DNA of 64,000 nucleotides, taken from Escherichia coli. GTDB taxonomy: Bacteria > Pseudomonadota > Gammaproteobacteria > Enterobacterales > Enterobacteriaceae. The stretch is from assembly GCF_003790525.1 (NCBI RefSeq), contig NZ_CP033635.1; one strand, 5' to 3'. Below are positions 57,001 through 64,000 of the stretch, in pieces. A program made the position numbers. The number at the start of each line of letters is the position of its first letter. The first letter of the stretch is position 1.

Positions 57001-60000
57001 ACCATTCCCTGGCATCCGCTGGTGATACGTTGAATCACGGTTTTAAATGACGCATCCAGCTGTACCGCAGGAACATCATGCTGCATGACATCAGCAACGC
57101 GGGTCAGCAGGCGACGACCTAATGAACCGCCCGGGTGATAGCGCGCAAAATCATTCGGCATAAATTTGCGTTGGTGGATCATGGCAATCGCCAGCGCATC
57201 GCCGATCGCCATCGTCAGCGTGGTAGACGTTGTTGGTGCAAGATTATTCGGGCAGGTTTCATTCGCCATGTGGAGTTCCAGCACGGCATCAGCATTTTTC
57301 GCCAGCGTGGAATTTCCATTATTGGTAATGGCGATAATTCGGTTGCCGAAATTTTTCAGTGAAGGAACTAGCTTGAGGATTTCATCCGTTTCACCGCTGG
57401 CAGAAATAAGGATCAGAAGATCGTAAGGCGTAATCATGCCCAGATCGCCATGGAAAGCTTCTGCAGGATGAATAAAGAAACTAGGCGTACCCGTAGAGGC
57501 CAGCGTCGCTGACATTTTACGACCGACATGCCCTGATTTACCCATTCCCGAAAGAATAACGTGACCTTTACAGTTCATTATCAAATTAAGGACTCGCTGG
57601 TACTGCCCGGAATCCAGTTGTTTAGACAAGTTTTGTAATGCTGCGCCTTGTTCTGCCAGAGTCTGGCGAACAGAGGTAATTAGATATGGATCGATAGTAC
57701 TGCTCTGGTCATCAGGTAAATGTCTTTCAGACATATCAGCTCCTTTGCACGGAAATAATGCCACAGTCACAACAAACCCGAACCCACTATAATTTATTTA
57801 TGCTAAATCAATGGGTTGTAACAAAATTTTCAATGAATATAAAACCATGGTCAGTCCATGCTTATATGCAGGACTTATCACCTTCTTATTAAGTCGCAAT
57901 GTCTCATGGAGGTGCGAAGATGCTGCAATATTACAGGCGAGAAGGGGAACCAAATTTTGCCCACCTATTTAACACACCCCTACATTATGAACAAGGAATT
58001 TAGGATTTTTATCATTTATTAAAATGTTTCCTACTTGACTATTAAGGCAAAAAACAATTTATCAATTGATTATTTCCTTGTAAAAAAAGAACGTATGACT
58101 ATGTTATTAATAAATAAAACACGCAAATAATGGTGATGTTGTTTTGTGATTAACTATTTAAGTGCGGCATAATAAACAGGTTGACAATTTCTATGTAAAG
58201 AAGAGGAAAATAATAAAATTTTAGCGGTGACTATTGAATGATATGATAGTTGTGGTGTTGATTATTTCTGGTAATGAATGCGGAATTAAATCTGGCCGGA
58301 TTGTATTTTTGCTATATCTATTTTTCAGGAGATTATTATTAAATAGAAAAATAACAATGGTGATTATCTCCGATTGAGCTGGAGTCACGTATGCCAGCGA
58401 GTGCTTTCTTCCGGGCCTTCCTTCACTTCAGAGAAAGAGCCTATGGAAAAGAGGCAATCATCAGGCTCTTTTTGAGTCATATGCGCCGATAATCAACTGT
58501 CTTGAACGTAAAAATTATGGAGCAACATGATGCTACGATTCATTTCACTCTTCGTTCTTTCTGAGCATTGCGTTCAGGATGGTCAGCAATTTACGCATAC
58601 AGTCAACCAGCGCCACTTTTTTGGTTTTTCCGGCTGCTGGCAGATGCATGTAAAACGCCTTTATCACCGGATTAAACCAGGTTACCACAAGCGCTGCCAT
58701 GTGCAGGGCTGCTCTTGCCTCCGTACGCGCACTGGCGTCGTTCGGCCAGCAGATATGTGTGGGATAACAGGGATGTTATGTGAACTGAACTGTGTTTTGT
58801 TAGCGGGGGATGTTTATTGATGATTCGGGAGTGTTTAAGACCTGATGGCGTTATGCTCCCAAGTTTATTTTATATAAAGATCCAAAAGCAAAAACCCGCC
58901 TTGTGGGCGGGTTCTTAAGAATTAGTGGTGCCCGGACTCGGAATCGAACCAAGGACACGGGGATTTTCAATCCCCATGTCATAAAATTCAGATAGTTACG
59001 GGCATGTCAAGTTGTTGTCGAAGTCTTTCATGCGCATCCGATCACATAACTGTCGATAGGACGCAGATATGAAAATACTTCCCGTTGTCTCAACAAAAGG
59101 TGGCGAAGGTAAATCAACACAATCCGCTAACCTGGCTGGTTTTCTCGCCGATGCAGGTATCCGTACCCTGCTGATTGACGGAGATCATGCTCAGCCCACG
59201 GCAAGCAACATCTTTCCGCTGACATATGAAGCGTCAGCCGGTCTTTTTGAGTTGCTGATGCGCACGGCTGACCTCAGTTATCCCGATAACATCATTTCCC
59301 GCACAGCTATCGACGGACTCGATCTGATAGTCTCCAATGACCCTCATGAGCAGTTAAAAACTGCGATGCTTCACGCCCCGGATGGTCGTCTGCGCCTCCG
59401 GAATGTCCTGCAGCATCCGCTTTTTCTGAACAACTACGATGTCATTATAGTTGATTCTCAGGGTGCGCGTTCTGTCATGCTCGAAATGATTGTGCTGTCG
59501 GCCACTGATTCGGTTGTCGGGATGGTCAATCCGGTACTCCCTGATGTGCGCGAGTTTATTCGCGGCACTGTCAACGTTATGGAGAACCTGCTGCCTTACC
59601 GGGAACTGGGGATACCCCTGCCGAAAGTACGCACGCTGGTTAACTGCATGGATTATACGGCACTGGCCAGGAAGACGCTGGATGAGCTGGCCGGAATTAT
59701 TCAGACCGGTCGTTACAGCAGGCAGTTACCTGAAGGTGCGGTTTCCCTTCTTTCCACACAGATTTACGACCTGAATATTTACAAGCAGGGGCATGCGGCT
59801 GGTCAACCCGTACATCGTCTCGAAAAAGAATCCACACGTCGCAGTGATTCCGCGCTTGTCACGATGCACAGCCTGGCCTGTGAACTATTTCCTGAGTGGA
59901 AACAGGCGTTTGACGGGCTACTGGCTAACGGGGGAATACGTCAGTGATTCAGGTTAAGCGAGAACCATGCAGCTCCGTTACCCTGGCTTATGGACGTTAT

Positions 60001-63000: not shown

Positions 63001-64000
63001 TCCCCGAACTTCTGGAATCAGGAATGGGGAGTCCTCAGGTCAGGGCTTTACTGTCTCTCCGGCAGGATGCGGAACGTATCTGGGGACAGTTTGCGGTGGC
63101 AACAGAGAACGGGGGGGATTTTGACCGCGTGTTTGGTGAATGCTGCAGCAAATTCAATTCACCGGAGCTCTGGTCACTGGAGATGTTCCGGGATGAGCTG
63201 ATTGGTGATCTGCTGAAAGCGTTACCACATCCGGTGCTGGATTATGACCGCTGGCTGCTTGAACTGGATCCGCGGGAACGTAACCGACGTCATCATTTTG
63301 GTGAACCTGAACCGGTGCTCATTCCCGCAGACAGTGATGCGATGCCAGAGCCTGTGACTCACGGTACGTCGGCAGTGACGGTGGAGAAGGACAGCGGAAG
63401 GGAGCAGTCTGTGATTTCCGCACCGGCTGACCATGACACAGTCATGAATACGGAGCAATCCCCTGTTGGAAAGGCGGAGAGTTCAGTTACTGAACAACGC
63501 GAAGAACGCCGCAGAAAGGAAGTCCAGCCGGATATGTATGGTGGTGAAGAAACATACAGCGGCGATTACGAAGAGGATGGCGATACCCGTGATGCTGCGG
63601 ATCTGCCGGTAACGTCACCGGAAGAGGGTGCTCAGCAGAGCATCGGTGAAATTTTCAGTGAGCCGGAATTCAGTGTTGGTGAACTGGATGATATCGAATA
63701 TCTGCAGAATGAGGCATTTCACCTGGCATGGGAGCTGGCGTCACACACAGGCTGTGTCGATGAACTGGCTATGGACAGGGAAAGCGAACTGTCTGCGGGA
63801 TTCGGCGCGGCAGAGGCGAATTGTTCTCCGGTCATGGCATTTCTTGTCAGGCTGACCGGTGAGGAGGTTCTGCGGGTTAATCCGGTTTCTCTTGATGCAC
63901 TGATGATTGGTGGCAGTACTGAAGAAGAGCCACCACTGCTGGATGATGAGCATGCCGGGAAGTTACTCCGTCTGCTTGGGGTGTTGCGTCGTCTGCGGGG

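What the first reader, a model, noticed from the sequence alone, without database searches (positions are those of the whole stretch)
59069..64000. parA - hypothetical - dnaB-like - parB-like module: att-distal end of an ICE or genomic island
Directly after the tRNA-Phe fragment lie co-directional genes for a ParA/Soj ATPase, a small hypothetical protein, a DnaB-family helicase and a ParB-like nuclease-domain protein whose start overlaps the helicase stop. This partition/replication module sits at the att-distal end of integrative conjugative elements and genomic islands that integrate into tRNA genes. Only the first 5 kb are in the window, so cargo (conjugation, virulence or defence) is unknown.
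Basis: partly seen in the sequence, partly recalled or inferred. Interest (0 to 1): 0.5.

Follow-up and report, generated by a model that had tools for sequence, protein, structure and literature searches.

The report
Known conjugative element end at pheV
The last 5 kb of the window is the integrase-far end of a well-known type of self-transmissible element (SPI-7 / ICEEc2 family) inserted in the E. coli tRNA gene pheV, so the finding is real but ordinary.

Summary
A 50-nt 3' fragment of tRNA-Phe with its native terminator lies at 58926-58975 on the minus strand. It is followed by parA (59069-59947), small ORFs, an SPI-7-type dnaB (61022-62410) and a PFGI-1-class parB-like gene (62400 to the window end) that overlaps the dnaB stop by 11 nt.

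A chromosome 100% identical up to 58975 has an intact pheV and no insert. In 35 of 5,426 complete E. coli genomes the same module (mostly 99.7-100% identical) is present. In the genome read end to end it opens an 81.6-kb element: replication genes, GI-type type IV secretion genes, a type IVb pilus, UvrD-TraI-integrase, then intact pheV. This is the ICEEc2 / SPI-7 / SGI-4 / PAPI-1 family, described since 2010, and it transfers experimentally.

One refinement concerns function. The "ParB" matches no Pfam ParB domain. It has the two-domain architecture of ICEclc BisD, a CTP-dependent DNA clamp that activates transfer genes with BisC (DUF2857), and a BisC-like gene lies two genes downstream in relatives. 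The module is therefore probably a maintenance-plus-regulation module, not a plain partition system.

Side observations are a conserved ~210-bp control unit with an unannotated minus-strand gene, and a 16 x 36-bp palindromic array just beyond the window.

The element is already known and of low interest.

The parts
58889..58917 (-). Native intrinsic terminator of pheV; chromosomal flank, not part of the element.
   Evidence: Terminator scan found a 12-pair stem followed by a T run. The sequence is identical to the empty-site chromosome.
58926..58975 (-). attR core: the 3' 50 nt of native tRNA-Phe (pheV'). The crossover segment is 58954-58975 (GGGGATTGAAAATCCCCGTGTC on the minus strand).
   Evidence: Three-way alignment of empty site, window and attL of a relative. 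Identity to strain CUVET17-1418 ends exactly at 58975. ARAGORN and Rfam call no tRNA here.
58976..59068 (+). Element-side junction and leader of parA; no sigma-70-like promoter was found.
   Evidence: Promoter scan. In the circular relative pSGI4, int, attP and parA are co-directional.
59069..59947 (+). parA/soj-type deviant Walker-A ATPase, 292 aa.
   Evidence: Pfam AAA_31 and CbiA. PHROG ParA-like. 41-42% identical to the ParA of ICEclc-type loci.
60036..60530 (+). Hypothetical ORF of 164 aa with an acidic, low-complexity tail.
   Evidence: The frame stays open at 165-171 aa in relatives 75% identical in nucleotides. No family hit. In the non-overlapped part substitutions are most frequent at third codon positions.
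60337..60813 (-).
   Evidence: Called as a gene in public collections (P0121, 99% identity, 104 members; P0122, 74%). In most copies of the unit an AAGGAG Shine-Dalgarno-like sequence precedes the conserved start. Substitutions concentrate at its third codon positions in 60337-60530. Its amino-acid identity (78%) exceeds that of the overlapping + ORF (69%). PGAP is inconsistent about the strand.
60776..60989 (.). Conserved ~210-bp divergent control unit between the minus-strand gene and dnaB. It contains the nested inverted repeats TGCCGGACG...CGTCCGGCA, GTACAG...CTGTAC and GACCGG-N14-CCGGTC.
   Evidence: 138 of 5,426 E. coli genomes have a match. There are 1-3 copies per element, always within the parA-dnaB interval. 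Single-strand fold z-scores are -3.0 and -4.3. Only 3 of 50 predicted pairs covary. No Rfam hit.
61022..62410 (+). dnaB-PI, an SPI-7-type island replicative helicase (462 aa from the ATG; an alternative TTG start lies at 61004).
   Evidence: NF040583 scores 685.5 bits against a cut-off of 655. PGAP annotation in near-identical genomes agrees.
62400..64000 (+). PFGI-1-class ParB-like / BisD-like gene, cut by the window end (533 of 549 codons).
   Evidence: TIGR03764 scores 379 bits. Motifs G93NTR96 and E135NEVR139 are present. The N-domain is 44% identical to BisD of bisS-marked ICEclc-type loci. The C-domain alone gives hhalign probability 94.6%, E 6.7e-8. The AF2 model shows a disordered stretch at 305-428 followed by a helical C-terminal domain.

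Best explanation
Window 58976-64000 is the integrase-distal, attR-adjacent end of an integrative and conjugative element of the SPI-7 / ICEEc2 / SGI-4 / PAPI-1-pKLC102 family (NCBI 'PFGI-1 class'), inserted by site-specific recombination into the anticodon-to-variable-loop region of the chromosomal tRNA-Phe gene pheV.

**Shown**
- The original 3' half of pheV and its terminator remain at attR in the window.
- In relatives the element supplies a replacement 3' half, with a compensated T-stem, so that a functional tRNA is rebuilt at the integrase end.
- The four genes belong to the element-specific families of this ICE class.
- Near-identical copies elsewhere are complete ICEs of roughly 76-95 kb.

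**Inferred from homologues studied experimentally**
- After excision the two ends join, placing int-attP-parA in one transcriptional direction. parA may then be expressed from the circle, as in PAPI-1, where Soj is needed to keep the element.
- DnaB, together with the downstream STY4528 protein, the 36-bp repeat array, Ssb and topoisomerase III, supports plasmid-like replication of the excised circle.
- The 'ParB' is a BisD-type protein: a CTP-binding ParB-like clamp with a long linker and a C-terminal activation domain. With the DUF2857 (BisC-like) protein encoded two genes downstream, it probably loads on element DNA and switches on the transfer genes, and may also act as the adaptor for ParA.
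For: **Insertion and att sites**
- An empty site is 100% identical up to 58975.
- The three-way att alignment shows a 22-bp crossover segment, the native T-arm at attR and a variant compensated T-arm at attL.

**Family models**
- NF040583 (dnaB) and TIGR03764 (parB-like) both score above their curated cut-offs.

**The complete element in relatives**
- The full ICE has been read in VTB96815v.
- 35 genomes carry the module, and at least 23 of the top 25 carry the same TraI-int end, 76-95 kb away in the six genomes compared.
- pSGI4, a circular relative of 81,781 bp, shows UvrD-TraI-Int-attP-ParA-DnaB-ParB-DUF2786-DUF2857-STY4528 all co-directional, with the tRNA-Phe 3' segment as attP.

**Literature**
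- ICEEc2 is a PAPI-like ICE at tRNA-Phe in E. coli (PMC6761156, PMC11537424).
- The MBE 2026 study, citing the ICEEc2 paper, found ICEs integrated at pheV or pheU that transfer and mobilise chromosomal DNA, with strain CH4804 among the donors (PMC13127887). The CH4804 genome holds a 99.9% identical module (H8).
- Mutants in the equivalent module of ICEHin1056, including parB, lose up to 1e5-fold in transfer frequency (PMC3739013).
- PAPI-1 soj is needed for maintenance, and its promoter is created by circularisation (PMC2654960, citing Qiu et al. 2006).

**BisD link**
- Motifs and architecture match BisD.
- The N-domain is 44% identical to BisD, and DUF2857 is 35-37% identical to BisC, in loci marked by exact bisS sites.
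- The C-domain alone gives hhalign 94.6%, against 5.8% for a reversed control.
- BisD/BisC function is described in PMC12409273 and PMC7423338.
Against: - The window ends 5 kb into the element. The integrase, relaxase, T4SS, attL and the DUF2857 gene are seen only in relatives, not in this genome.
- No complete genome in the collection combines this capsule (kps) flank with the element.
- Decayed copies exist. In E24377A the module is cut after dnaB by IS elements.
- The BisD assignment is by homology only. Pfam sees no ParB domain. Foldseek found nothing with a low-confidence model. The ICEclc loading site bisS is absent from these elements even with 5 mismatches allowed. dnaB and DUF2786 are interposed, unlike in ICEclc, and there is no Shi homologue.
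- No promoter or parS site has been demonstrated here.
Confidence: 0.9

Rival explanations
1. Degraded remnant: only the parA-dnaB-parB end of a former ICE survives next to the pheV fragment, and the rest has been deleted or replaced.
For: Such remnants exist. In E24377A the homologous module is followed directly by IS21 and IS66 elements and lacks parB. At pheU in several strains only a frameshifted integrase fragment remains on the chromosomal side. The window cannot show the remainder of the element.
Against: All ORFs in the window are intact, including 533 codons of parB. The DNA is 99.7-100% identical to copies that are complete ICEs, and at least 23 of the 25 closest genomes keep the matching TraI-integrase end. 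There are no IS elements or pseudogenes in the 5 kb.
Confidence: 0.08
2. Plain ParABS partition plus helicase module: ParB acts only as a centromere-binding adaptor for ParA and has no regulatory role. This is the traditional annotation and the first reader's functional reading.
For: The ParA ATPase is canonical. PAPI-1 Soj is needed for maintenance (PMC2654960). A 16 x 36-bp palindrome array that could serve as a centromere lies 7 kb downstream in relatives. NCBI and the literature name the gene parB.
Against: The protein is 549 aa, with a disordered linker of about 120 aa and a C-terminal domain homologous to the BisD activation domain. A BisC-like DUF2857 gene is conserved nearby. Pfam ParBc does not match. 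parA and parB are separated by three genes. In ICEclc the homologue is essential for promoter activation (PMC12409273).
Confidence: 0.25
3. Integrated conjugative plasmid or prophage, rather than an ICE.
For: The same backbone occurs in records deposited as plasmids, including pSGI4 and plasmids of Klebsiella, Citrobacter, Serratia and Pantoea. pKLC102 is known in both states.
Against: The insertion is a precise tyrosine-recombinase event in a tRNA gene, with a 50-bp att repeat and an element-encoded integrase in relatives. There are no phage structural genes, and the only PHROG hit is ParA. pSGI4 carries attP and int, so it is an excised ICE.
Confidence: 0.03

Closest known systems
ICEEc2 of E. 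coli BEN374 (Roche et al. 2010) and the pheV/pheU ICEs of clinical and avian E. coli
   Same: Same species and the same target (a tRNA-Phe gene). It belongs to the pKLC102/PAPI family, has a type IV pilus and transfers by conjugation (PMC6761156, PMC11537424, PMC13127887). Modules 99.7-100% identical to the window occur in avian pathogenic and human isolates, including strain CH4804, a donor in the 2026 transfer experiments.
   Different: The ICEEc2 sequence itself and the original paper were not available to me, so identity to ICEEc2 proper is inferred. Cargo varies between copies (iha in VTB96815v), as does size (roughly 76-95 kb in the genomes compared). The reference ICEEc2 sits at pheU by my recollection, whereas this copy is at pheV next to a kps capsule locus.
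SPI-7 of Salmonella Typhi and SGI-4 (pSGI4) of monophasic S. Typhimurium
   Same: Same gene order: parA, small ORFs, dnaB, parB, DUF2786, DUF2857, STY4528, repeat array, PFL_4669, topoisomerase III. The same NCBIfam models apply (the dnaB model is named after SPI-7). The tRNA-Phe att is the same.
   Different: Only about 68% nucleotide identity to pSGI4. The small ORFs between parA and dnaB differ. The ~210-bp control unit was not found in any plasmid record, pSGI4 included. Cargo differs: Vi capsule in SPI-7 and metal resistance in SGI-4.
PAPI-1 / pKLC102 of Pseudomonas aeruginosa
   Same: The soj(parA)-dnaB-parB module lies at the end opposite the integrase. Soj is needed for maintenance and is expressed from the circular form (PMC2654960). 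The T4SS is GI-type and the pilus type IVb.
   Different: It integrates in tRNA-Lys, is only distantly related in sequence and has a different host genus.
ICEclc parA-shi-bisD-bisC regulatory module
   Same: ParA is 41-42% identical, the BisD N-domain 44% and BisC (DUF2857) 35-37%. The BisD C-terminal domain is homologous. The GNTR and ENExR CTP-pocket motifs fall at almost the same residue numbers.
   Different: There is no shi homologue. dnaB lies between parA and the bisD-like gene, and DUF2786 lies between the bisD-like and bisC-like genes. The bisS palindrome is absent. ICEclc integrates in tRNA-Gly (from memory).
ICEHin1056 5' module (Juhas et al. 2013)
   Same: A parA-dnaB-parB-ssb-topB module at the element extremity, where mutations including parB abolish transfer (PMC3739013).
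   Different: The host is Haemophilus, it was not compared by sequence here, and parA and dnaB are directly adjacent.

Membership tests
SPI-7 / ICEEc2 / PAPI-1 (PFGI-1 class) integrative conjugative elements | Site-specific insertion in a tRNA gene, flanked by a direct repeat of the tRNA 3' part. | tested here: met
   attR with the 50-nt pheV 3' fragment lies in the window. The empty site is identical up to 58975. attL was seen in a 99.9% identical relative.
SPI-7 / ICEEc2 / PAPI-1 (PFGI-1 class) integrative conjugative elements | An island-type DnaB and a PFGI-1-class ParB next to parA at the integrase-distal end. | tested here: met
   NF040583 scores 685.5 bits (cut-off 655) and TIGR03764 scores 379 bits (cut-off 143.75). 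The gene order matches SGI-4, UMNK88 and VTB96815v.
SPI-7 / ICEEc2 / PAPI-1 (PFGI-1 class) integrative conjugative elements | A tyrosine integrase, TraI relaxase, TraD coupling protein and GI-type T4SS (TIGR0374x-0375x proteins). | not testable with these tools
   These lie outside the 64-kb window. They are present in near-identical relatives.
SPI-7 / ICEEc2 / PAPI-1 (PFGI-1 class) integrative conjugative elements | Excision to a circle and conjugative transfer. | not testable with these tools
   Supported only by literature on relatives (PMC13127887, PMC6761156) and by the circular pSGI4 record.
BisD (ParB-like CTP clamp / activator of ICEclc) | An N-terminal ParB-like domain with the GxxR and ENxxR CTP-pocket motifs. 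| tested here: met
   G93NTR96 and E135NEVR139 in the window protein correspond to G92NTR95 and E136NELR140 in BisD. The N-domain is 44% identical over about 300 aa to BisD of bisS-marked loci. A weak KorB profile hit, E 0.0057.
BisD (ParB-like CTP clamp / activator of ICEclc) | A long unstructured linker followed by an all-helical C-terminal activation/dimerisation domain. | tested here: met
   In the AF2 model residues 305-428 have pLDDT below 50, and helices span 432-547. The C-domain alone gives hhalign probability 94.6%, E 6.7e-8, against 5.8% for a reversed control.
BisD (ParB-like CTP clamp / activator of ICEclc) | A partner BisC (DUF2857) encoded next to it. | tested here: inconclusive
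   The gene would lie beyond the window end. In the 99.9% identical relative and in pSGI4 a DUF2857 gene lies two or three genes downstream and is 35-37% identical to BisC.
BisD (ParB-like CTP clamp / activator of ICEclc) | The loading site bisS, GAGCTATCCCCnGGGGATAGCTC. | tested here: not met
   Absent from the window and from all enterobacterial loci with up to 5 mismatches. The 66 genome loci with exact sites are almost all Beta- or Gammaproteobacteria, with none from Enterobacterales. A different site would be needed; one candidate is the 36-bp palindrome array.
BisD (ParB-like CTP clamp / activator of ICEclc) | CTP binding and hydrolysis, and BisC-dependent promoter activation. | not testable with these tools
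   This requires biochemistry and genetics.
Canonical ParABS partition system | A ParA Walker-type ATPase. | tested here: met
   Pfam AAA_31, CbiA and ParA, and the KGGEGKST motif.
Canonical ParABS partition system | A ParB with a recognisable ParB N-terminal (ParBc) domain, encoded directly downstream of parA. | tested here: not met
   No Pfam hit even at E <= 10. PDB phmmer finds nothing. parB is separated from parA by two or three ORFs, including dnaB.
Canonical ParABS partition system | parS centromere sites near the operon. | tested here: inconclusive
   There is no conserved palindrome in the window; the 10-bp palindrome in dnaB is not conserved in relatives. A candidate array exists 7 kb beyond the window in relatives.

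The most novel reading that the evidence does not exclude
In the enterobacterial SPI-7/ICEEc2 family, the 'partition module' is really the master switch for transfer. The ParB-like protein would be a BisD-type CTP clamp that loads on a family-specific site, for which the 16 x 36-bp palindrome array next to STY4528 is a candidate, and together with the DUF2857 protein would turn on the transfer genes. Separately, the conserved ~210-bp structured unit upstream of dnaB, found in 1-3 copies and each paired with a different small minus-strand gene that shares only its first 12 codons, would be an undescribed control or cassette-exchange element for early or accessory genes.
Probability: 0.35. Interest if true: 0.4.

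Novelty: already known. Interest (0 to 1): 0.15.

Why it matters
This ICE family moves virulence and resistance cargo between Enterobacteriaceae: iha here, the Vi capsule in SPI-7 and metal resistance in SGI-4. Recent work shows that pheV/pheU ICEs can mobilise large chromosomal segments in an Hfr-like way and so generate hybrid pandemic clones (PMC13127887).

For this window the practical message is annotation. The strain carries, or carried, such an ICE between pheV and its capsule locus. The only forward-looking value is the link to BisD/BisC, which gives a testable model for how transfer of SPI-7-type elements is switched on. A second possible lead is the conserved control unit with its unannotated minus-strand gene family.

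Tried and rejected
- **tRNA and RNA family searches.** ARAGORN and Rfam on the window found no tRNA or known RNA at the junction or in the module. The only hit was a sub-threshold P9 match on the terminator.
- **Small ORFs.** NCBIfam, PHROGs, PADLOC and Pfam gave nothing for ORF164 or the minus-strand ORF.
- **ParB fold.** Foldseek of the AF2 ParB model against PDB found nothing significant. The N-domain of the model is low-confidence, so this is uninformative rather than negative. PDB phmmer also found nothing.
- **ICEclc bisS site.** It is absent even with 5 mismatches.
- **Shi homologue.** None among the small ORFs.
- **Palindrome in dnaB.** The perfect 10+10 palindrome at 61857-61878 is not conserved in related dnaB genes, so I dropped it as a parS candidate.
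- **The ~210-bp unit as a regulon-wide promoter.** It occurs only in the parA-dnaB interval of the 81-kb ICE and in no plasmid record, so I rejected this reading.
- **The unit as a structured RNA.** Covariation is weak, with 3 of 50 pairs showing compensatory change and most pairs invariant, so this is not supported.
- **The unit as a single-strand (Frpo-like) promoter.** I considered this but could not test it.
- **Literature gaps.** The ICEEc2 paper (PMC2944505) is not held. A supplement search of PMC13127887 did not give the coordinates of 'ICE-2'.
- **A faulty script output.** A naive position-by-position comparison of the window with L001 went out of register at a 1-bp indel near 58917 and should be ignored; only the bisS part is used.
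Full report
**1. Observation**

The ORF list and frame translations confirm four co-directional + strand genes:

- parA at 59069-59947
- a 164-aa ORF at 60036-60530
- dnaB from the ATG at 61022 (or the TTG at 61004) to 62410
- a parB-like ORF starting at ATG 62400, which overlaps the dnaB stop codon by 11 nt and stays open to the window end (533 codons)

Family searches give the following. ParA matches Pfam AAA_31, CbiA and ParA, and the PHROG ParA-like family. DnaB matches NCBIfam NF040583 'SPI-7-type island replicative DNA helicase' at 685.5 bits, above the curated cut-off of 655. 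ParB matches TIGR03764 'ICE_PFGI_1_parB' at 379 bits, above its cut-off of 143.75.

The 'tRNA-Phe fragment' lies at 58926-58975 on the minus strand. It is the 3' 50 nt of tRNA-Phe, followed by the gene's own terminator hairpin at 58889-58917. ARAGORN and Rfam do not call a tRNA there.

**2. It is an insertion, and the junction is a classical att site**

The 19 kb to the left of the fragment holds the kps capsule genes kpsF and kpsE and an IS110 remnant. It is 100% identical to three canine E. coli chromosomes, and the identity stops exactly at 58975. In those chromosomes the sequence continues as an intact tRNA-Phe followed by yqgA and speC, which is an empty site.

I aligned three sequences: the empty site, the window, and the integrase-side junction of a related element.

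- All three share GGGGATTGAAAATCCCCGTGTC, the anticodon stem-loop to variable region. This is the likely crossover segment.
- The window keeps the native T-arm (CCTTGG...CCGAG) and the native terminator.
- The rebuilt tRNA at the other end carries an element-borne 3' half with a compensated T-stem (CGGTGG...CCGCC), followed by element DNA.

This is what integrase-mediated recombination between an attP that carries a tRNA 3' segment and the chromosomal tRNA gene would produce.

**3. What the rest of the element looks like**

The 5.2-kb query (58800-64000) is covered at 80% or more in 35 of 5,426 complete E. coli genomes. The top 24 matches are 99.7-100% identical, and many come from poultry or from extra-intestinal human isolates.

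In strain VTB96815v, which matches at 99.9% including the kps-side flank, I read the annotation through to the end. The order is:

- parA, two small ORFs, dnaB-PI, ParB, DUF2786, DUF2857
- a run of small genes, then STY4528-family replication protein, PFL_4669, topoisomerase III, STY4534, ssb, pilL2
- TraD and the series of TIGR0374x-0375x 'integrating conjugative element' T4SS proteins
- iha (cargo), TraG, ArdA
- a shufflon recombinase with pilV, and a type IVb pilus operon
- UvrD-like helicase, TraI, tyrosine integrase
- intact tRNA-Phe, then yqgA

The element is 81.6 kb. The TraI-integrase end of that element is present in at least 23 of the 25 genomes that best match the parA end. In the six genomes where I compared coordinates the two ends lie 76-95 kb apart.

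**4. Which known element**

[quoted passage not shown] ICEEc2 is the first PAPI/pKLC102-family ICE reported in E. coli, and it integrates in tRNA-Phe (PMC6761156).

A 2026 study, citing the ICEEc2 paper, found ICEs integrated at pheV or pheU. It showed that they transfer and drive Hfr-like transfer of chromosomal DNA (PMC13127887). One of its donor strains, CH4804, has a module 99.9% identical to the window, together with the matching integrase end (H8, H93). I did not confirm that this copy is the paper's 'ICE-2'.

The module also occurs, at about 68% nucleotide identity, in pSGI4. This is the excised circular form (81,781 bp) of Salmonella genomic island 4. There UvrD-TraI-Int, a tRNA-Phe 3' segment (attP) and ParA-DnaB-ParB-DUF2786-DUF2857-STY4528 are contiguous and co-directional.

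The equivalent module of ICEHin1056 has been described as conserved in PAPI, pKLC102, ICEclc and SPI-7, and shown to be needed for transfer (PMC3739013).

I could not obtain the ICEEc2 paper or sequence. 'ICEEc2-like' is therefore an inference from family, host and target site.

**5. How it probably works**

*Shown.* The integration site, the family membership of the proteins and the architecture of the complete relatives are established above.

*Inferred: parA expression from the circle.* In PAPI-1 the soj/parA gene is required to retain the element. Its expression rises when circularisation joins a promoter from the integrase end to soj (PMC2654960, citing Qiu et al. 2006). Here parA starts 93 nt from the att core, with no sigma-70-like promoter in between. 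In the relatives int reads towards att and parA reads away from it. The same arrangement is therefore possible.

*Inferred: a plasmid-like replicon.* DnaB, the STY4528 protein, ssb and topoisomerase III suggest plasmid-like replication of the excised circle. The same backbone is found on records deposited as plasmids.

*Inferred: a BisD-type ParB.* The ParB-like protein is not a textbook ParB:

- Pfam finds no ParB domain.
- The protein is 549 aa long.
- AlphaFold2 gives a moderately confident N-domain, a disordered stretch at 305-428 and a helical C-domain.

This is the architecture reported for BisD of ICEclc. BisD is a ParB-like CTP-binding clamp that loads at bisS sites, spreads over about 50 kb and activates the transfer-competence promoters together with BisC, a DUF2857 protein (PMC12409273, PMC7423338).

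To obtain BisD sequences for comparison, I used the published bisS palindrome to fetch 66 ICEclc-type loci. The Pseudomonas sp. P818 copy reproduces the published G92NTR95 numbering. Comparison with these loci gives:

| Protein or region | Result |
|---|---|
| ParA | 41-42% identical |
| ParB-like N-domain vs BisD | 44% identical |
| DUF2857 vs BisC | 35-37% identical |
| C-terminal domain alone, hhalign | probability 94.6%, E 6.7e-8 |
| C-terminal domain, reversed control | probability 5.8% |

The CTP-pocket motifs are conserved, as G93NTR96 and E135NEVR139. A profile of the family weakly hits KorB, another ParB-type CTP clamp that regulates transcription (E 0.0057).

There are also differences from ICEclc. 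The bisS site itself is absent. There is no Shi homologue. dnaB and DUF2786 are interposed. I therefore file the protein as BisD-like in architecture and probable mechanism, with the loading site and the regulatory role untested.

**6.

The parA-dnaB interval is variable between related elements and is built around a conserved unit of about 210 bp (window 60776-60989).

- The unit has a match in 138 genomes.
- There are 1-3 copies per element, and none elsewhere in the 81-kb ICE or in plasmid records.
- Each copy sits between a + strand gene (dnaB, ORF164 or a 300-aa ORF) and a minus-strand ORF. The minus-strand ORF begins inside the unit with the conserved peptide MNT(E/N)xQLPSGI. In most copies an AAGGAG Shine-Dalgarno-like sequence precedes the start.
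- Beyond that conserved start, the minus-strand ORFs fall into at least three unrelated or distantly related bodies.

In the window this minus-strand gene is 60337-60813 (158 aa). Public gene calls contain it (P0121 and P0122). In 60337-60530 substitutions fall mainly on its third codon positions. It is better conserved than the overlapping + strand ORF that PGAP sometimes prefers, at 78% against 69% amino-acid identity. It has no family assignment.

The unit folds stably as a single strand, with z-scores of -3.0 and -4.3. Most predicted pairs are invariant, so the structure is not proven. I read the unit as a densely packed divergent control region. A role in cassette exchange, or as a single-strand promoter, remains speculative.

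**7. Beyond the window**

In the relative, the 'hypothetical protein' that follows STY4528 is a 16 x 36-bp tandem array. Each unit contains the palindrome CTGTTGGCAnTGCCAACAG. A similar array occurs in pSGI4 and at the very start of a Klebsiella plasmid record. It is a candidate iteron or centromere, or a BisD loading site.

**8. Verdict**

The element belongs to a family known since 2010 and is nearly identical to copies in dozens of sequenced genomes. The novelty rating is 'already known' and interest is low. The main caveat is that the window ends 5 kb into the element, so its completeness in this strain is inferred from relatives.

Noticed in passing
window 60776-60989 (also L004, L005, L007-L009): A conserved ~210-bp non-coding unit lies upstream of dnaB, with nested inverted repeats. 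It has a match in 138 of 5,426 E. coli genomes. There are 1-3 copies per element, only in the parA-dnaB interval, and none in plasmid records. It folds stably as a single strand, but covariation is weak.
   Followed up: partly
window 60337-60813 (minus strand): A 158-aa ORF starts inside the unit. It shares only its first ~12 codons (MNTxxQLPSGI) with at least two other gene types found at other copies of the unit. PGAP annotates the opposite strand in some genomes (+ ORF 60517-61029) and this strand in others. Codon-position and identity tests favour the minus strand. No family or function could be assigned.
   Followed up: partly
L001 31756-32330 (strain VTB96815v, about 7 kb beyond the window end): A 16 x 36-bp tandem array, with each unit carrying the palindrome CTGTTGGCAnTGCCAACAG, is annotated as a 192-aa 'hypothetical protein' directly after the STY4528-family replication gene. 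A related array occurs in pSGI4 and at position 1 of a Klebsiella plasmid record. It is a candidate iteron, centromere or BisD loading site.
   Followed up: partly
window 58926-59003 (minus strand): In near-identical genomes PGAP annotates the attR junction (the pheV 3' half plus element DNA beginning GCCCGTAAC...) as 'tRNA-Ser' or 'tRNA-OTHER'. ARAGORN and Rfam do not call a tRNA there, so this is probably an annotation artefact of the hybrid junction.
   Followed up: yes
L003 8322-8397 (attL of VTB96815v) compared with window 58926-58953: The tRNA-Phe rebuilt at the integrase end carries an element-borne 3' half with two compensated T-stem changes (CCTTGG/CCGAG becomes CGGTGG/CCGCC). The host therefore expresses a slightly different tRNA-Phe while the element is integrated.
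   Followed up: partly
window 40000-58975: A group 2 capsule (kps) locus lies here. Its serotype-specific region encodes a CDP-glycerol glycerophosphotransferase and an acyltransferase. It is 100% identical to canine urinary isolates from Thailand that lack the ICE. No complete genome in the collection combines this capsule locus with the ICE.
   Followed up: partly
window about 57800-58850: An AT-rich stretch (GC 0.32 at 58000-58499) and a C-terminal fragment of an IS110-family transposase (minus strand, about 58545-58727) lie between kpsF and the pheV fragment. Both are present identically in the empty-site strains, so they predate the ICE insertion.
   Followed up: no
L004 (E. coli E24377A) and L005, L007-L009 (pheU, next to cadC): A second, diverged lineage of the same ICE family (about 75% nucleotide identity in the parA-dnaB interval) sits at pheU in many E. 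coli. A frameshifted integrase remnant of an older island lies on the chromosomal side. In E24377A the module is truncated after dnaB by IS21 and IS66 elements.
   Followed up: partly
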